Made by a program: the position numbers and the translations under genes
Part shown: piece by piece, positions 8,539 to 51,299 of the stretch
How positions within the stretch are numbered: the stretch's first letter is position 1
How the letters are laid out: each line of letters begins with the position of its first letter
The notes under the pieces: generated by a model
The model's input: only the letters and a program-made list of their open reading frames with translations
Told to the model about the DNA's origin: nothing
Databases searched by the model: none
Source: Candidatus Uhrbacteria bacterium
Lineage (GTDB): Bacteria > Patescibacteriota > Patescibacteriia > UBA9934
NCBI GenBank assembly: GCA_030688135.1
Contig: JAUYIW010000067.1
Span: 23,982 to 87,981 of the forward strand
Direction: 5' to 3'
DNA: 64,000 nt

Positions 8539-8654
8539 CTGCAAGGGTCCTAAGATGTACAGATCAGTACGAATATACAAATATATAGATAAATTTGAAC
8601 CAGAAATCTGTATATCTGTAAAAATCCGTACATCCTCGGTACCTTGCTACTTCT

Positions 8655-10022: not shown

Positions 10023-10120
10023 AATACAAACCCTAAATTCTAGACTCTAACCTCTAAATAAATCCAAAATTCAAATTTATTTAGGATTTCTGTTTCGAGC
10101 TTAAAATTTATATGACCCTA

Positions 10121-10173
10121 CTGATAACTGGTCTTGGAAACCCAGGCAAAAAATATCAAAGCACACGCCACAA
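10121..10173 (+). repeat. partial duplicate of the pth 5' end (remnant)
   Basis: CTGATAACTGGTCTTGGAAACCCAGGCAAAAAATATCAAAGCACACGCCACAA mirrors pth codons 3-20. A 24-nt stretch is identical to 10275-10298 and the rest has diverged. Confidence 0.6.
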
Positions 10174-10236
10174 ACCACCCCAAACCCATCCTGAGGAGCA
10201 CTGCATTTCAACGACGAAGGATCTTTTGCAAAAAAT

Positions 10237-10803
10237 ATGACAAAACTTATTGTAGGATTAGGTAATCCCGGCTCAAAATATCAAAGCACACGCCACAATC
10301 TAGGCTTTATGATACTCGACCGCTTGGCTGAAAAGCTCAATGCTAGCTGGAGCGAGGATTTAAAAACATTGGCCGATGTCGCTGAACTTAATCTTGACGG
10401 TGTTAAGGTAATTTTAGCAAAGCCAATGACGTACATGAATAAGTCTGGCGAAGCTGTTGGTGCGCTAGCGCGGAAGTTTAAAGTTGAGTCTGGTGATGTC
10501 TGGGTAGCGCATGATGATGTTGACCTTCCATTTGGTCGATTGCGCGTTCGGCTTGATGGTTCTGCCGGCGGGCACAAAGGGGTTCAAAGTGTAATTGATA
10601 GTCTTCAAGCTAATGATTTTGTACGTTTAAAAGTTGGAGTTGGCGGAACACCTGAAAAAATGGCACTTGAAGATTGGGTGCTCTCAAAGTTCACAAAAGA
10701 AGAGCTCGATGTGTTAGAAGGATTAGTGGAGCAAGTAACAAATAAAATAATAGACGCGATTAAGTCTGGAAGTTTAGAAAATATAACCGAGAACCTTGAG
10801 TAA
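10237..10803 (+). CDS. pth: peptidyl-tRNA hydrolase
   Basis: LIVGLGNPGSKYQSTRHNLGF N-terminal signature. The conserved His/Asp catalytic region is present. 188 aa. Confidence 0.9.
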   Translation: MTKLIVGLGNPGSKYQSTRHNLGFMILDRLAEKLNASWSEDLKTLADVAELNLDGVKVILAKPMTYMNKSGEAVGALARKFKVESGDVWVAHDDVDLPFGRLRVRLDGSAGGHKGVQSVIDSLQANDFVRLKVGVGGTPEKMALEDWVLSKFTKEELDVLEGLVEQVTNKIIDAIKSGSLENITENLE

Positions 10804-14930: not shown

Positions 14931-15037
14931 TCATAAGCGAACGCAATAATAAGTAAAATGCTCCCGACCAACGCGGGAGTATTGTTTTTTACATCCTCGA
15001 ATGTGTATTGATTTATATTGTGTCCACGCAACCCTAA

Positions 15038-15054
15038 GGGTTGCGGTTGCGAAT
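15038..15054. repeat. REP-like 17-nt palindrome GCAACCCTAAGGGTTGC (copy 1)
   Basis: Perfect palindrome. One of four copies flanking the RAYT gene. Confidence 0.75.
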
Positions 15055-15150
15055 CACAATGTTATCAACACTTGACTTACTTGCTAAAAAATGCTAAAAA
15101 TAAAGTACTCCCCATTACTGCGGGAGTTTTATTTATGCATTCTCGCATAT

Positions 15151-15167
15151 GCAACCCTAAGGGTTGC
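15151..15167. repeat. REP-like palindrome (copy 2)
   Basis: GCAACCCTAAGGGTTGC, directly abutting the ATG at 15168. Confidence 0.75.
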
Positions 15168-15188
15168 ATGCATACAACATACAAGAAT

Positions 15189-15848
15189 ATGCGAGAGCTT
15201 TCGTTCTACAATTCCGGTTTTTTCCACGTCTATAACCGAGGTGTTGATAAACGAGATACCTTTCTGAAAAAGATCGACTGGTTACGTTTTCTACAAATGA
15301 TGGTGTCCGTTAATGACTCAGGAAATAAACGAAAGCGATTTCCTTTGAGAGACAAAACGAACATAGTGCAGAGTGACGAACCTTACGTGCAAATACACTG
15401 CTATACGCTTATGCCAAATCATTTTCATATCTTGTTGGAGCAGCTTGTTGAAGATGGAATTTCAAAATTTATGGGTAGATTATCTAATGGCTATACAAAG
15501 TATTTCAATAAACGTAATAAACGCTCTGGTAGTCTATTCGAAAGTACATTTAAGGCAAGAGAAATCTGTGGTACTGCTGACCTTATTAATATATCCAGAT
15601 ATATTCATCTAAACCCACTTAGCGTGATTAGACCGAAATGGAAAATACAAGGAATCGTCAACTGGCACGATACATTGAATTTTTTAGAACAGTATCCATG
15701 GTCTAGCTACCAGTCATACATGGACATAAATAAGCAACCGTTTGTCGAATCAGATAGAATTATGAGCTGCTTTTCAGGTGCACAAGACTATAAGCAGTTT
15801 ATGCAAGAGTGGACCCCCACAGACCCCAGAGACTTTGTGCAACCCTAA
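15189..15848 (+). CDS. REP-associated tyrosine transposase (RAYT; IS200/IS605-like Y1 HUH transposase)
   Basis: The HUH motif is present (IHCYTLMPNHFHILLEQ). The N-terminal FHVYNRG block and a downstream Tyr region (YIHLNPL) are also present. The gene is flanked by four REP-like palindromes. The start could be at 15168; the annotated 15018 start would run through two palindromes. Confidence 0.7.
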   Translation: MRELSFYNSGFFHVYNRGVDKRDTFLKKIDWLRFLQMMVSVNDSGNKRKRFPLRDKTNIVQSDEPYVQIHCYTLMPNHFHILLEQLVEDGISKFMGRLSNGYTKYFNKRNKRSGSLFESTFKAREICGTADLINISRYIHLNPLSVIRPKWKIQGIVNWHDTLNFLEQYPWSSYQSYMDINKQPFVESDRIMSCFSGAQDYKQFMQEWTPTDPRDFVQP

Positions 15849-15855
15849 GGGTTGC
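15839..15855. repeat. REP-like palindrome (copy 3; overlaps the RAYT stop)
   Basis: GCAACCCTAAGGGTTGC. Confidence 0.75.
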
Positions 15856-15884
15856 ACAACAGAAAACCAATCTTTACTGGTTAG

Positions 15885-15901
15885 TCATAGTGCGTGCAAC
15901 C
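15885..15901. repeat. REP-like palindrome (copy 4; centre base flipped, i.e. opposite orientation)
   Basis: GCAACCCTTAGGGTTGC. Confidence 0.7.
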
Positions 15902-16127
15902 CTTAGGGTTGCACATGAATGTTGCACTTGCTTAACGATGAGTATATATTTGACAACTTGCACCTATATACTGCATTATGCCCCGTAGAGAAACTTCGAA
16001 GTTCTTCTACGGGGTATGTGGGCATTGTCTCAGAAGTCTGAAAGTCTAAAGTCTGAAAGTCCCCAGTCCCCCGACCACTCCTGTTCCATCGTCAACGATC
16101 AATAGTCAATAGTTTCGCAATCCGCTT

Positions 16128-19610: not shown

Positions 19611-19644
19611 TCACCCAATTAAAATATTTTCGAAACCGGGTTTC
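19611..19644. repeat. perfect 34-bp palindrome AAAATATTTTCGAAACCGGGTTTCGAAAATATTT
   Basis: The 16-bp arms are perfectly complementary. It lies between convergent genes and may be a bidirectional terminator or IS end structure. Confidence 0.7.
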
Positions 19645-19668
19645 GAAAATATTTGGGCATTAGGCGGT

Positions 19669-21830: not shown

Positions 21831-22090
21831 AAGAACATTCAAAATGTTAAAGTCGATCAGATTAATTTTGACGATTAAAATAGAATCACCAGACCCGCCT
21901 TGTCATTACGAAGAGGCCGTTTTTCGTGACGAAGTAATCTATCTTTTCTGCCATCCTGAGGAGCTCGTAATGGATCATACGCAATTTGGGTGGAGAATGC
22001 ATAGAGGCCAAAGGTTAGCTCAACCGGTAAAAACAGCGAATCTCTTGCTTTCTACCATCTCGAACCCGACTTAACTTTCTGCTGTCGGGC

Positions 22091-22200
22091 GAGAGATCTT
22101 TCGAACCCCACCATCTCGAGGAGCTTGCAATCCACGACGAGAGATCTTTCGAACCCCACCATCTCGAGGAGCTTGCAATCCACGACGAGAGATCTTTCGC
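22091..22200. repeat. 48-bp tandem repeat, about 2.3 copies
   Basis: The unit GAGAGATCTTTCGAACCCCACCATCTCGAGGAGCTTGCAATCCACGAC is repeated head-to-tail. Confidence 0.8.
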
Positions 22201-22359: not shown

Positions 22360-22780
22360 GATCTCTCAGTCGCTTTGCTCCTTCGAGATGGTAAAGTGCG
22401 AAAAAATTGCTTTGTCGTAAACCGCGAGCTCCTAGTAATGCGTATTTTGTCTTTGCGAGGAATCTACTTATCGTGACGAAGCAAACTCTTCGGTTAGAGT
22501 GCAGAAAGATTGCTTCGGACCGAACTGCATAGTCCTCGCAATGACGAAAAAGATCTCTCAGTCGCTTCGCTCCTTCGAGATGGTAAAGTGCGAAAAAATT
22601 GCTTTGTCGTAAACCGCGAGCTCCTAGTAATGCGTATTTTGTCTTTGCGAGGAACCTGCTTATCGTGACGAAGCAAACTCTTTGGTTAGAGTTCAGAAAG
22701 ATTGCTTCGGACCGAACTGCATAGTCCTCGCAATGACGAAAAAGATCTCTCAGTCACTTTGCTCCTTCGAGATGGTGAGA
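22360..22780. repeat. 192-bp tandem repeat, about 2.2 copies
   Basis: Unit starts at 22360, 22552 and 22744 are near-identical (GATCTCTCAGTCGCTTTGCTCCTTCGAGATGGTAAAGTGCG...). They share the core GATCTCTCAGTCG..CTCCTTCGAGATGG with the MITE-like family C. Confidence 0.8.
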
Positions 22781-24883: not shown

Positions 24884-25010
24884 TGAATTACGAAACTCGA
24901 TGAGATTTGCGTGAACGGGCTGTCGATCCCGGTGAACCCTACTAAAACGTAGGGAGAACAGGGGCGACGGGCGCCCATGAACGCAAAGATCGCGAGTTTC
25001 GTAATTCAAG
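24884..25010. repeat. GC-rich ~130-bp structured element with terminal inverted repeats, family A copy 1
   Basis: CTGAATTACGAAACTCG...GCGTGAACGGGCTGTCGATCCCGGTGAACCCTACTAAAACGTAGGGAGAA..GGGGCGACGGGCGCCC.TGAACGCAAAGATCGCGAGTTTCGTAATTCAAG. Confidence 0.7.
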
Positions 25011-34819: not shown

Positions 34820-34948
34820 CTTGAATTACGAAACTCGCGATCTTTGCGTGAACGGGCTGTCGATCCCCGTGAACCCTACTAAAACGTAGGGAGAATGGGG
34901 GCGACGGGCGCCCGTGAACGCAAAGATCGCGAGTTTCGTAATTCAAAA
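34820..34948. repeat. GC-rich structured element, family A copy 2 (has a perfect 29-bp outer stem)
   Basis: CTTGAATTACGAAACTCGCGATCTTTGCG ... CGCAAAGATCGCGAGTTTCGTAATTCAAG encloses the GTGAACGGGCTGTCGATCCCCGTGAACCCTACTAAAACGTAGGGAGAATGGGGGCGACGGGCGCCCGTGAA core. Confidence 0.7.
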
Positions 34949-38074: not shown

Positions 38075-38203
38075 CTTGAATTACGAAACTCGATGAGATT
38101 TGCGTGAACGGGCTGTCGATCCCCGTGAACCCTACTAAAACGTAGGGAGAACGAGGGCGACGGGTGCCCGTGAACGCAAAGATCGCGAGTTTCGTAATTC
38201 AAG
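38075..38203. repeat. GC-rich structured element, family A copy 3
   Basis: CTTGAATTACGAAACTCGATGAGATTTGCGTGAACGGGCTGTCGATCCCCGTGAACCCTACTAAAACGTAGGGAGAACGAGGGCGACGGGTGCCCGTGAACGCAAAGATCGCGAGTTTCGTAATTCAAG. Confidence 0.7.
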
Positions 38204-40525: not shown

Positions 40526-41308
40526 TTAAATTTTTATCTCAGGTTGTAGCGTTAATATCTCCGGTCCGTCTTCGCCGATAACAATCGTTACTTCATAGTG
40601 AGCCGCGTCTGATCCGTCAACGGTAGTAATTGTCCAGCCATCTTCCAATGTTTCAATATCGTCTGATCCGGTTGTAATCATTGGCTCAATAGCCAAACAC
40701 ATTCCAATTTTAATTTCCTGATCTGGGAATTTTTTTGTTCTGTAATTTGGAATATGAGGTTTTTCATGCACCTCATGCCCAACGCCATGCCCTACTAAGG
40801 CACGCACAATGCCATATTTTTTCAAATCGATTACATCTTCTACCGCCGCACCAATATCCGATATCATATTTCCAACTACTGCAGCATCGACGCCCACATA
40901 AAGCGCATCACGAGTTAAACGCATAAGTTCAAGCTTTTCTTTAGATACATTTCCAACCGGAACTGTAACAGCCATATCTACACACATATCTTCGTACCAA
41001 AGGCCAATATCTAGACCAACAATGTCTCCCTCTTCCAATGTTATATCTCGGCCACCAACACCATGAACAATCTCATTATTTCTTGAAATACAAAGAGTTG
41101 ATGGAAAAGGAGTACCTCCACCACTTCCAAATCCCTTAAATGAAGGCTTACCTCCACCCTCTAGAATCGCCTGCTCGGCAATAGAATCAAGTTCACGCAT
41201 AGTAACGCCAGGCTTTGTAGCATCAACCGCCGCTTGCAATGCACGTGACAGCAATGCGCCACCTTTGCGCATACTTTCGATTTCTTTAATTGTTTTTATA
41301 AGTGCCAT
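40526..41308 (-). CDS. map: methionine aminopeptidase, type I
   Basis: Pita-bread fold with metal ligands (D..D..H..E..E in the conserved order). 260 aa. Confidence 0.9.
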   Translation of the reverse strand: MALIKTIKEIESMRKGGALLSRALQAAVDATKPGVTMRELDSIAEQAILEGGGKPSFKGFGSGGGTPFPSTLCISRNNEIVHGVGGRDITLEEGDIVGLDIGLWYEDMCVDMAVTVPVGNVSKEKLELMRLTRDALYVGVDAAVVGNMISDIGAAVEDVIDLKKYGIVRALVGHGVGHEVHEKPHIPNYRTKKFPDQEIKIGMCLAIEPMITTGSDDIETLEDGWTITTVDGSDAAHYEVTIVIGEDGPEILTLQPEIKI

Positions 41309-41367
41309 ATGATTTTGCTAGTTACCTACTGATGTACTAATTTTTACTGATATACAGATCGAGTAGC

Positions 41368-46913: not shown

Positions 46914-47231
46914 CTATTCTAAATCTTCAAGACCTTTTTTAGTCTTAAGTATTCTAACTTTTGTCTTTTTTGAATCGCGCTCAATAAACTTATAAGCAAC
47001 ACGACCTTCGCCAGCCTTTCCAATAACTCGTACATTTGAAGCGTCTATTGGTGCAAAGTAATCAATACGTTGTCCAGCTGTGTTACCTCGTCGTTTTAGA
47101 TGTTTTACAGCCTTATTGATTTCTTCAATAACAACTTTATTGAGATTTGGAAAAACCTGCAGGACCTTTCCGGTCTTGCCTTTATCTTTACCTGCGGTAA
47201 CTCTTACATTGTCGCCAGTTTTAATCTTCAT
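46914..47231 (-). CDS. rplX: 50S ribosomal protein L24
   Basis: KIKTGDNVRVTAGKDKGKTGKV KOW motif. Confidence 0.9.
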   Translation of the reverse strand: MKIKTGDNVRVTAGKDKGKTGKVLQVFPNLNKVVIEEINKAVKHLKRRGNTAGQRIDYFAPIDASNVRVIGKAGEGRVAYKFIERDSKKTKVRILKTKKGLEDLE

Positions 47232-47240
47232 ATTATATTA

Positions 47241-47343
47241 CCAGGTTCCTACTGATGTACTGATAGCTACAGATTTACTAATTGGATTTAGCCGCTTGTC
47301 GATCTGTATATCTGTAATAATCTGTACATTAGTAGGGTCCTTG
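47241..47343. repeat. ~100-bp palindromic spacer element, family D copy 1 (L14/L24 gap)
   Basis: Terminal inverted repeats CCAGGTTCCTACTGATGTAC ... GTACATTAGTAGGGTCCTTG. Inner core CGATCTGTATATCTGTA. Confidence 0.65.
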
Positions 47344-50245: not shown

Positions 50246-50257
50246 AGGTTTCGATTA

Positions 50258-50339
50258 CCAGGCTCCTACTAATGTACCAATTGTCACTGATGTACAGATC
50301 CGTAAATCTATATTAATCAGTATATTAGTAGGAACCTGG
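50258..50339. repeat. palindromic spacer element, family D copy 2 (L2/S19 gap)
   Basis: CCAGGCTCCTACTAATGTAC ... TATATTAGTAGGAACCTGG. Confidence 0.65.
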
Positions 50340-51189: not shown

Positions 51190-51207
51190 ATTTATTGATA
51201 TACTAGT

Positions 51208-51299
51208 ACCCTACAGAAGTACTGATTGTGACCGATTTATTTATAATCCGACTTCAGATCTGTGAATCAGTACCAATCAGTACGTCAGTAGGTTCCCTG
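51208..51299. repeat. palindromic spacer element, family D copy 3 (L23/L2 gap)
   Basis: ACCCTACAGAAGTACTGATTG ... CAATCAGTACGTCAGTAGGTTCCCTG. Confidence 0.6.

What the first reader, a model, noticed from the sequence alone, without database searches (positions are those of the whole stretch)
15038..15901. REP/RAYT unit: IS200-like HUH tyrosine transposase flanked by four copies of the 17-nt palindrome GCAACCCTAAGGGTTGC
A Y1 HUH transposase-like gene carries the motif MPNHFHILLEQ. Two perfect 17-nt palindromes lie upstream and two downstream. One downstream copy is in the flipped orientation, giving a BIME-like pair.

This is the classic REP-associated tyrosine transposase arrangement described in Proteobacteria. 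It is not expected a priori in a reduced CPR-type genome. Two of the palindromes lie inside the longest annotated ORF, which argues for a downstream start (15168 or 15189).
Basis: partly seen in the sequence, partly recalled or inferred. Interest (0 to 1): 0.55.

Follow-up and report, generated by a model that had tools for sequence, protein, structure and literature searches.

The report
Hairpin-bracketed Y1 transposase-like gene unit
A single gene for an IS200/RAYT-type DNA-cutting enzyme in a Uhrbacteria (CPR) genome is bracketed by four copies of its own 17-base hairpin; this layout recurs in its many CPR relatives, but the hairpins are not spread through the genome, so it is a fairly ordinary "TIRtron/REPtron"-type unit rather than a true REP system.

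Summary
Four copies of GCAACCCTWAGGGTTGC (15028, 15151, 15839, 15896; the last flipped) bracket an intact 219-aa Y1 HUH gene. The gene runs 15189-15848; homologue N-termini support the 15189 start. The HUH motif (H78/H80) and the Tyr motif (Y138-IHLNP) are invariant, and the predicted fold best matches E. coli TnpA_REP (4ER8).

The "classic REP/RAYT" reading is only partly right.
- The palindrome occurs nowhere else in the 64-kb window.
- There is no GTAG foot.
- The protein scores below NCBIfam's REP-transposase cutoff (43 vs 80 bits).
- It is much closer to published TIRYTs (Quentin subclass 2.1) than to REP-associated RAYTs.

The family is also common in CPR, not unexpected: more than 3,700 relatives were found.

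In ten loci from ten genomes (230 kb), every homologue carries its own lineage-specific hairpin. These sit in a stereotyped layout: P1, promoter-like site, hairpin plus T-run, P2, gene, P3 at the stop codon. No dispersed copies were found. The unit is absent from the same folC-topA site in one relative and present in the closest one.

Best reading: a single-copy, self-contained TIRtron/REPtron-like Y1 module with private cognate hairpins. It is a new member of a known kind, of modest interest.

The parts
14950..15007 (+). folC terminator-like hairpin (stem 14957-14983 plus T-run) and about 20 nt after it. About 72% identical to the internal leader segment 15097-15153, so it may be a partial duplicate of the unit's leader. 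Its membership in the unit is uncertain.
   Evidence: (D2)
15027..15045 (.). P1: outer upstream copy of the cognate palindrome CGCAACCC-TAA-GGGTTGCG, 144 nt before the start codon. Marks the left edge of the unit.
   Evidence: ssDNA hairpin -9.5 kcal/mol, z -4.0. The equivalent P1 in L126/L128 marks where DNA homology begins.
15072..15101 (+). Sigma-70-like promoter match TTGACT-18-AAAAAT between P1 and P2. A TTGAC(A) element sits at the same place in four of the relatives (L126, L128, L132, L142); L145 has only a weaker TTGAGA there.
   Evidence: Consensus match only; function is inferred.
15098..15134 (+). Leader hairpin CTCCCC...GGGAG followed by TTTTATTT, which looks like an intrinsic terminator or attenuator. 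It is conserved in position in L126, L128, L132, L142, L144 and L145.
   Evidence: (-8.7 kcal/mol, z -4.85)
15149..15169 (.). P2: inner upstream copy ATGCAACCC-TAA-GGGTTGCAT, 21 nt before the ATG.
15189..15848 (+). Y1 HUH (IS200/RAYT-superfamily) gene, 219 aa. HUH is H78-F-H80 (nt 15420-15428). The catalytic-Tyr motif is Y138-IHLNP (Y at nt 15600-15602). The C-terminal tail has a WSS motif (S172, S173).
15835..15859 (.). P3: downstream copy TTGTGCAACCC-TAA-GGGTTGCACAA, same orientation as P1 and P2. Its left arm encodes the last residues (FVQP) and its loop TAA is the stop codon.
   Evidence: A P3 at or overlapping the stop codon is seen in all relatives.
15894..15914 (.). P4: flipped copy (central T). 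With P3 it forms a 22-nt perfect inverted doublet separated by 36 nt, resembling a REPIN/BIME. Marks the right edge of the unit.
   Evidence: (I3)

Best explanation
The region 15027-15914 is a self-contained, single-copy TIRtron/REPtron-type unit. It consists of a class-2 Y1 HUH ssDNA endonuclease/transposase gene of the TIRYT / subclass 2.1 branch, in a short form without the long C-terminal tail. The gene is bracketed by private copies of its own recognition hairpin.

Shown:
- The enzyme is intact, and its catalytic residues are conserved across the clade.
- The hairpin copies are identical within a locus but differ between lineages. They always sit at the same places: one or two upstream, one on the stop codon, and sometimes one in frame inside the gene.
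- The unit is a discrete block. It sits in different contexts in different genomes and is absent from the same site in one relative.

Inferred by homology to E. coli TnpA_REP and IS608 TnpA:
- When the DNA is single-stranded (lagging-strand template), the protein binds the stem-loop and cuts and rejoins next to it through Tyr138 and the HUH-bound metal.
- This keeps the flanking copies uniform and occasionally moves or deletes the whole P1-P3 block.
- It has not seeded a genome-wide repeat family.
- The promoter-like site followed by a hairpin plus T-run in the leader probably keeps expression very low, as is known for IS200.
For: Enzyme:
- Pfam Y1_Tnp hit.
- H78/H80 and Y138-I-H-L-N142 are invariant in 27 sequences.
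- AF2 model pLDDT 89. The top PDB fold match is 4ER8 (E 7.5e-7), followed by IS608/ISDra2 TnpA.

Branch:
- BLASTP to published TIRYTs gives 62-72 bits, against 27-48 bits to RAYTs. The clade profile gives 82-102 against 18-45 bits.
- The motifs NHFH / F[EQ] / YIHLNP / SS match Quentin et al. subclass 2.1.

Cognate hairpins:
- All ten of ten loci carry 2-7 copies each of a lineage-specific hairpin. All 41 copies lie from 234 nt upstream to 160 nt downstream of the gene, or inside it.
- The only close protein pair (L126/L128, 66% identity) shares the hairpin at 18 of 19 positions.

Discrete unit:
- L126 and L128 are 70.5% identical exactly from P1 to P3, with nothing alignable outside.
- folC and topA are 35 nt apart in L143, an empty site. 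The site is filled in the window and in L142.

Single and stable:
- One Y1 gene in 64 kb. The P0001 cluster has 1 member on 1 contig.
- P0115 is always in the same rpsB-tsf / prfA context in 24 contigs.
- Syntenic pairs are L132/L145 at serS and L134/L144 at rpsB-tsf.

No dispersal:
- 0 real copies in about 215 kb outside the units.
Against: - No biochemical or transcript data exist; binding and cleavage are inferred only from homology.
- The rest of the source genome (a 93.8-kb contig plus other contigs) could not be retrieved. A low-copy dispersed family, below about 48 copies per Mb in this genome, is not excluded.
- At the shared folC-topA site the Y1 proteins are only 46% identical, while DprA, FolC and TopA are 75-78% identical. 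That site may therefore have been re-invaded or replaced, which points to more mobility than 'domesticated' implies.
- Published descriptions of subclass 2.1 say no REP-like structures flank those genes. Either this CPR clade differs from them or those searches missed such hairpins.
Confidence: 0.6

Rival explanations
1. Classical REP/RAYT system. The 17-mer is a REP family spread through intergenic regions of the genome, and this single-copy RAYT disseminates it. The flanking copies are the REPtron.
For: The REPtron-like arrangement and the inverted P3-P4 doublet. The fold is closest to E. coli TnpA_REP. NCBIfam REP_Tyr_transpos is the only NCBIfam hit.
Against: No copy outside the unit in 63 kb even at 3 mismatches. 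If about 100 copies were spread over about 1 Mb, roughly 6 would be expected (P of zero about 0.002). The genome size and the even spread are my assumptions.

None in 166 kb from nine relatives for their own hairpins. No GTAG foot. The NCBIfam score is 43 against a cutoff of 80. The protein groups with TIRYTs, not RAYTs. The GTAG-recognising W-Q of 4ER8 aligns to F-E here. Scans of 596 Gb of reference genomes and of JGI metagenomes found no relative with this 17-mer dispersed.
Confidence: 0.08
2. An active, autonomous IS200-like insertion sequence. P1 and P3 would be the left-end and right-end subterminal hairpins, the element would excise as an ssDNA circle and reinsert, and its single-copy state would only reflect small genomes and MAG assembly collapse.
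For: P1 and P3 have the same orientation, as LE and RE do in IS200/IS608. Homology between L126 and L128 stops at the outer hairpins, and their contexts differ. L143 is an empty site. The Y1 at the shared site is far more diverged than its neighbours, which is compatible with reinvasion. A terminator-like hairpin in the leader recalls IS200 (own knowledge).
Against: No second copy in any locus, and only one context for P0115 in 24 contigs. The Y motif is Y...NP (class 2), not the Y...Q of IS200 transposases, and the HUH motif is NHFH, not DH[VI]H. Deeply diverged genomes keep the gene at the same site, with Y1 divergence similar to that of SerS, RpsB and PrfA. This fits long vertical residence better than rapid turnover.
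Confidence: 0.2
3. The palindromes are only transcript-level elements (terminators, insulators or mRNA-stabilising stem-loops) for the Y1 gene and its neighbours, and the enzyme does not recognise them.
For: P3 sits on the stop codon and P2 just upstream of the start. REP-type hairpins are known to act in 3'UTRs (abstract listed).
Against: Independent terminators have no reason to be sequence-identical within a locus while differing between lineages. The P hairpins lack T-runs, whereas separate hairpin-plus-T-run elements are present. Three relatives carry an in-frame copy inside the coding region at codons 52-60.
Confidence: 0.07

Closest known systems
TIRYT / TIRtron (Di Nocera et al. 2013, PMC3733652) = TnpA_Y1 subclass 2.1 (Quentin et al. 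2018, PMC6006769) = Bertels group 1 RAYT
   Same: This is the closest group by sequence: 62-72 bits single-sequence and 82-102 bits with the clade profile. The motif set is the same: YHVxNRG, LMPNH[FY]H, F/W-[EQ], Y[IV]HLNP and a WSS tail. The gene is bracketed by repeats that are often not a genome-wide family, and some published TIRs are wholly self-complementary. Copy number is low.
   Different: The protein is about 220 aa and lacks the long distal C-terminal (HTH-like, GRPRK-ending) tail of the published TIRYTs. The flanking repeats are short perfect stem-loops, not GGGGWSAS-type TIRs. Quentin et al. report no REP-like structures for subclass 2.1. The hosts are CPR/Patescibacteria, which I did not find mentioned in those papers.
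E. coli TnpA_REP (RAYT, YafM; PDB 4ER8) and its REPtron; subclasses 2.2/2.5
   Same: The fold is a Y1 HUH fold and 4ER8 is the best structural match. The Y...NP motif is shared. The gene is single copy and flanked by cognate hairpins, including inverted doublets (REPIN-like).
   Different: There is no GT[AG]G foot and the W94-Q95 equivalent is absent. The hairpins are not dispersed in the available sequence. Sequence similarity is weak: 27 bits to eco b228 and profile E 0.019 to 4er8. The score is below the NCBIfam equivalog cutoff.
IS200 / IS608 / ISDra2 (IS200/IS605 family, subclass 1.1)
   Same: The catalytic fold is the same. Stem-loops lie near both ends in the same orientation, the unit is compact at about 0.85-0.9 kb, and the leader carries a hairpin that probably limits expression.
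   Different: The Y motif is Y...NP rather than Y...Q, and the HUH motif is NHFH rather than DH[VI]H. The protein has a C-terminal tail of about 75 aa. There are no multiple near-identical copies and no tnpB partner.

Membership tests
Y1 HUH endonuclease superfamily (Pfam PF01797 Y1_Tnp) | Profile match above the curated cutoff | tested here: met
   32.4 bits against a cutoff of 23
Y1 HUH endonuclease superfamily (Pfam PF01797 Y1_Tnp) | HUH metal-binding motif and a single catalytic Tyr on the following helix, within the Y1 fold | tested here: met
   H78-F-H80 and Y138 are invariant in 27 sequences and aligned to the same motifs of 4er8. The AF2 model matches 4ER8, IS608 and ISDra2.
REP-associated tyrosine transposase (RAYT / TnpA_REP sensu stricto, with REPtron) | Gene flanked by copies of its cognate REP hairpin, often as inverted pairs | tested here: met
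   P1-P4 in the window; the same pattern in 9 relatives
REP-associated tyrosine transposase (RAYT / TnpA_REP sensu stricto, with REPtron) | The same REP is dispersed at high copy number (usually more than 100 per genome) in intergenic regions | tested here: not met
   0 copies outside the unit in 63 kb of the window and 0 real copies in about 215 kb pooled over ten genomes. The full source genome was not obtainable, so this is met only as far as the sequence allows.
REP-associated tyrosine transposase (RAYT / TnpA_REP sensu stricto, with REPtron) | Conserved 5' GT[AG]G tetranucleotide at the hairpin foot, and the W-Q...R residues that read it | tested here: not met
   The 5' flanks are CCAC, ATAT, TTGT and CATGT. 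W94-Q95 of 4ER8 aligns to F-E.
REP-associated tyrosine transposase (RAYT / TnpA_REP sensu stricto, with REPtron) | NCBIfam NF047646 equivalog cutoff | tested here: not met
   43 bits against a cutoff of 80 for the window protein. All 27 clade members hit the model only weakly (best E 1.8e-13); their individual scores were not shown.
REP-associated tyrosine transposase (RAYT / TnpA_REP sensu stricto, with REPtron) | Single copy per genome, stable position, vertical inheritance | tested here: inconclusive
   One gene in 64 kb. P0115 has one context in 24 contigs. There are three syntenic pairs. However, Y1 is 46% identical against 75-78% for neighbours at the shared site, and whole genomes were not available.
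TIRYT / TnpA_Y1 subclass 2.1 (Bertels group 1) | Closer in sequence to TIRYTs than to RAYTs; motif set NH[YF]H, FQ/W[EQ], Y[IV]HLNP, SS tail | tested here: met
   (bit scores), for the motifs. The authors' own HMMs and tree were not available.
TIRYT / TnpA_Y1 subclass 2.1 (Bertels group 1) | Gene bracketed by terminal inverted repeats (TIRtron), often without a dispersed family | tested here: met
   The self-complementary P copies on both sides are inverted repeats by construction (I6/I8). No dispersed family was seen. They are not of the common GGGGWSAS type.
TIRYT / TnpA_Y1 subclass 2.1 (Bertels group 1) | Additional distal C-terminal domain (HTH-like); median length 238 aa | tested here: not met
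   219 aa, and the clade is 216-235 aa. Only the proximal WSS tail is present. Pfam finds no second domain. The published TIRYT tails of about 100 aa are absent.
IS200/IS605 transposase TnpA (subclass 1.1) and IS200-type insertion sequence | Y...Q tyrosine motif, DH[VI]H HUH motif, core-only protein of about 150 aa | tested here: not met
   YIHLNP, NHFH and 219 aa
IS200/IS605 transposase TnpA (subclass 1.1) and IS200-type insertion sequence | Several near-identical copies per genome in different contexts | tested here: not met
   within the limits of MAG data
IS200/IS605 transposase TnpA (subclass 1.1) and IS200-type insertion sequence | Subterminal hairpins at both ends; excision and insertion through ssDNA | not testable with these tools
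   Hairpins are present at both ends. Transposition chemistry would need experiments or read-level data.

The most novel reading that the evidence does not exclude
The CPR-wide short-form Y1 modules may be neither decaying insertion sequences nor REP spreaders. They could be long-lived, vertically kept host-level devices in which the enzyme acts only on its own private hairpins, including an in-frame intragenic copy in some lineages. Possible roles include self-limiting autoregulation or local ssDNA processing at conserved sites next to housekeeping operons. The promoter-terminator-hairpin leader would be part of that circuit. Equivalently, they could represent the 'seed' stage from which REP families arise.
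Probability: 0.15. Interest if true: 0.55.

Novelty: new member of a known kind. Interest (0 to 1): 0.33.

Why it matters
The analysis corrects a database-level simplification. Thousands of CPR genes are labelled only 'transposase'. They form a coherent short-form branch of the TIRYT / subclass 2.1 Y1 enzymes, and each carries its own private hairpins in a stereotyped layout. The literature says this subclass lacks REP-like structures.

The clade gives a compact natural set of enzyme-hairpin pairs: ten different cognate hairpins are listed here. Such pairs could be used to study how Y1 HUH enzymes read stem-loops. They also bear on why some lineages amplify their hairpins into REP families while streamlined genomes do not.

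For annotation, the work fixes the start codon at 15189. The public 182-aa call is truncated and the 276-aa ORF is too long.

Tried and rejected
1. Finding the rest of the source genome.
- The exact 17-mer was scanned in genome contigs and metagenome contigs. Both gave only scattered single matches, plus one unrelated metagenome (Ga0136639) where the 17-mer sits inside other nested repeats with different flanks.
- The look-up of encoding contigs for P0001 and for the window's TopA found nothing on record.
- Genome-wide dispersal could therefore not be tested directly.

2. Single-sequence phmmer against the PDB gave nothing useful. A profile search and fold search were needed.

3. Rfam on the unit returned only spurious miRNA-precursor hits caused by the long hairpin.

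4. The 47-nt, 77% 'inverted pair' around P1/P2 (I1) is not counted as evidence. Outside the palindrome core the match is only about 60% in AT-rich sequence.

5. dN/dS for L126 against L128 could not be computed. dS is saturated; dN is 0.22.

6. Hairpin theme against protein identity: the matrix is nearly star-like at 37-49%, so only the one close pair is informative.

7. CRISPR, attC or operator readings were considered and dropped. There is no regular spacing, copies lie on both sides of and inside the gene, and they co-vary with the Y1 lineage.
Full report
**1. Observation**

The 17-mer GCAACCCTWAGGGTTGC occurs four times: at 15028, 15151 and 15839 with a central A, and at 15896 with a central T. 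It occurs nowhere else in the 64-kb window, even with three mismatches allowed. That is 8 strand-matches against 0.19 expected, and no shuffle reached 8.

The stems extend to 9-12 bp. The four copies are:
- P1 15027-45
- P2 15149-69
- P3 15835-59
- P4 15894-914

As ssDNA each folds stably. P3 and P4 are a perfect 22-nt inverted pair 36 nt apart and can form one long hairpin (-29.7 kcal/mol, z -8.1).

The ORF between them carries MPNHFHILLEQ. Otherwise the description is accurate.

**2. The gene**

The longest ORF (15018-15848) swallows P1 and P2. Alignment with 26 homologues shows that all N-termini line up on MRELSF.../M-R-x-x-x-F at 15189. The gene is therefore 15189-15848, 219 aa. The public 182-aa call (P0001, 'Candidatus Uhrbacteria bacterium', 93.8-kb contig) is truncated.

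Pfam Y1_Tnp is matched above its cutoff (32.4 against 23 bits). NCBIfam REP_Tyr_transpos is matched only weakly (43 against 80 bits).

Invariant residues in the alignment:
- H13, N16, R17, G18
- P76-N-H78-x-H80 (the HUH motif)
- Y138-I-H-L-N142
- S172-S173

An AlphaFold model built on the alignment is confident (pLDDT 89). Its best PDB match is E. coli TnpA_REP bound to a REP hairpin (4ER8, E 7.5e-7), followed by the IS608 and ISDra2 transposases. tblastn finds only one such gene in the window.

**3. Which branch of the superfamily**

The motif set is NHFH, F-[EQ], YIHLNP and a WSS tail, in a protein of about 220 aa. This matches subclass 2.1 of Quentin et al. 2018, which corresponds to Bertels group 1 and mostly to the TIRYTs of Di Nocera et al. 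2013.

I tested this directly using sequences printed in Di Nocera's Additional file 5. Results are:

| Query | TIRYTs | RAYTs |
|---|---|---|
| Window protein (BLASTP bits) | 62-72 (sml_4509, gbm_2474, dau_2153) | 27-48 (eco b228, sml_2816, pfs_3939) |
| Clade profile (bits) | 82-102 | 18-45 |

The protein is therefore TIRYT-like, not a REP-associated RAYT in the strict sense. It lacks the roughly 100-aa distal tail of the published TIRYTs.

The family is large. There are more than 3,700 hits; of the minority that carry a source name, nearly all are Patescibacteria and one is Omnitrophica. In the 50%-identity library there are 14,295 representatives at E<=1e-3 and 184 at E<=1e-30. Its presence in a CPR genome is expected, not surprising.

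**4. Are the palindromes a REP family?**

Not in any sequence I could reach. There is nothing outside the unit in the window.

Scans of the GTDB representative genomes and the JGI metagenomes did not recover the source organism. They returned scattered single matches, and one unrelated metagenome where the 17-mer lies inside other nested repeats with different flanks.

Suppose a typical REP load of more than 100 copies (Nunvar et al. abstract) sat evenly in a genome of about 1 Mb (my assumptions). About 6 copies would then be expected in 63 kb, and the probability of seeing zero is about 0.002. The 95% upper bound for this genome is about 48 copies per Mb. There is also no conserved GTAG-type foot.

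**5. Comparative evidence that the hairpins belong to the enzyme**

I fetched nine further homologous loci from other genomes: L126, L128, L130, L132, L133, L134, L142, L144 and L145. Every one has its own hairpin, repeated 2-7 times, always hugging the gene (summary).

| Locus | Cognate hairpin |
|---|---|
| window | GCAACCC-TAA-GGGTTGC |
| L142 | TTAACC-CTGAA-GGTTAA |
| L126/L128 | ACCAAC-GYTAAAG-GTTGGT |
| L132 | CCACAACC-G-GGTTGTGG |
| L145 | GTCAACCCC-T-GGGGTTGAC |
| L130 | GTGTGAAGC-TTA-GCTTCACAC |
| L133 | TCGAAGC-TAA-GCTTCGA |
| L134 | TACAAGG-TTCAA-CCTTGTA |
| L144 | TGTGCAGAAT-TGG-ATTCTGCACA |

All 41 copies lie within 234 nt upstream, within 160 nt downstream, or inside the gene. 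In about 215 kb outside the units there is only one match, a 3-mismatch, non-palindromic hit that is probably chance.

Copies are identical or nearly so within a locus and different between lineages. The only close protein pair (L126/L128, 66% identity) shares the hairpin at 18 of 19 positions.

The layout is stereotyped:
1. P1
2. a TTGAC(A)-17/18-TAxxxT promoter-like site
3. a hairpin followed by a T-run
4. P2, lying 8-30 nt before the ATG
5. the gene
6. P3, on or just after the stop codon

This is supported. Inverted doublets recur in L132, L133 and L142, matching P3-P4 here. Three loci (L133, L134, L144) also carry an in-frame copy at codons 52-60, in the variable, low-confidence loop of the protein.

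**6. Is the unit discrete, and is it mobile?**

- L126 and L128 lie in unrelated gene contexts. They align at 70.5% exactly from the first base of P1 to the last of P3, and nowhere else.
- In the window the unit sits between folC and topA. The closest relative (TopA 78% identical) has a Y1 unit at the same place (L142). A slightly more distant Uhrbacterium (TopA 73%) has folC and topA only 35 nt apart, an empty site (L143).
- P0115 is found in 24 contigs from many samples, always between rpsB-tsf and prfA-rpmE.
- Two more syntenic pairs exist. L132/L145 lie next to serS, and L134/L144 next to rpsB-tsf. In these pairs Y1 divergence (39-46%) is similar to that of SerS, RpsB and PrfA (38-52%).
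- At the folC-topA site, by contrast, the two Y1 proteins are only 46% identical while DprA, FolC and TopA are 75-78% identical.

Overall the unit is single-copy and long-lived at given sites. It has nevertheless been gained, lost or replaced as a block over evolutionary time.

**7. Mechanism**

Shown:
- The Y1 HUH enzyme is intact.
- Private, co-varying hairpins bracket it.
- The unit has block-like boundaries.
- No dispersal is seen in the available sequence.

Inferred from the solved homologues (4ER8, IS608):
- The enzyme binds the stem-loop on single-stranded DNA and cuts and rejoins beside it through Tyr138.
- This would explain the uniformity of the copies and the occasional movement or loss of the P1-P3 block.

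The conserved promoter-like site followed directly by a hairpin plus T-run suggests tight limitation of expression. This is reminiscent of IS200 (my own knowledge; untested here).

I put 0.6 on this 'TIRtron/REPtron-type private-hairpin unit' reading. The rivals are an active IS200-like element (0.2), a true REP system (0.08) and hairpins acting only at the RNA level (0.07).

**8. Novelty**

Di Nocera et al. already describe RAYT-like genes bracketed by repeats that are not genome-wide families. Some of those repeats are self-complementary, and they list REPtrons in species that lack REP families. The kind is therefore known.

What appears undescribed in the searchable literature is the CPR-wide short-form clade with perfect stem-loops in a fixed leader/gene/stop-codon layout. 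Quentin et al. explicitly found no REP-like structures for subclass 2.1.

I rate it a new member of a known kind, of modest interest.

**9. Limits**

- There is no whole genome for the source or for any relative.
- There are no read-level or experimental data.
- Promoter and terminator calls are consensus matches only.

Noticed in passing
window 24884-25010, 34821-34947, 38077-38203: A dispersed, non-coding long-hairpin element of about 127-131 nt, present in 3 copies that are 92-96% identical. It has about 30-nt terminal inverted arms (TTGAATTACGAAACTCGCGATCTTTGCGT...) and an apex hairpin CCCTAC-TAAAAC-GTAGGG. RNA MFE is -69 to -93 kcal/mol. At least the first copy is intergenic, and there is no Rfam family. 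It looks REPIN- or MITE-like and is unrelated to the Y1 palindrome apart from a shared AACCCTA 7-mer. It was not found in any fetched relative. Arguably more 'REP-like' than the finding itself.
   Followed up: partly
L133 10180-10196; L134 4155-4173; L144 10171-10193: In three relatives a copy of the cognate hairpin lies in frame inside the Y1 gene, at codons 52-60. This is the variable, low-pLDDT loop between helix A and the HUH strand. No such copy exists in the window gene.
   Followed up: partly
window 14950-15007 vs 15097-15153: The folC terminator region is about 72% identical to the unit's internal leader hairpin plus the following roughly 20 nt. This may be a partial duplication of the leader, or a remnant of an older unit.
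   Followed up: partly
window 15189-15848 vs L142 9063-9755: At the shared folC-topA site the two Y1 proteins are 46% identical, while DprA, FolC and TopA are 75-78% identical. This implies either very fast evolution or replacement of the unit at the same site.
   Followed up: partly
window 22090-22185 and 22360-22776: A perfect 48-nt tandem duplication and a 192-nt tandem repeat of 2-3 copies at 97% identity. Coding status was not checked.
   Followed up: no
window 19622-19654: A 33-nt perfect palindrome, AAATATTTTCGAAACCGGGTTTCGAAAATATTT, with a 16-bp stem. Single occurrence.
   Followed up: no
window 10110-10173 vs 10235-10298: A 64-nt segment 75% identical to the start of the peptidyl-tRNA hydrolase gene lies just upstream of it. 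It looks like a duplicated 5' fragment.
   Followed up: no
window 8606-8633, 41306-41355, 47229-47329, 50246-50325, 51191-51285: Recurrent AT-rich motifs of the type CTGATGTACTGAT / ATCTGTATATCTGTAA in several places (D3/D6). They may be promoter or regulatory repeats.
   Followed up: no
L142 4124-5005: The closest relative carries an rve-family (DDE) integrase/IS gene between pth and dprA. The window lacks it.
   Followed up: no
L052, L062, L077, L080, L084, L085, L089, L090, L098, L110, L112, L113 (metagenome Ga0136639): The same 17-mer recurs 16 times on 12 contigs of one metagenome. It is embedded in dense nested short-palindrome repeats with quite different flanks. This is an unrelated repeat-rich organism, not the source.
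   Followed up: partly
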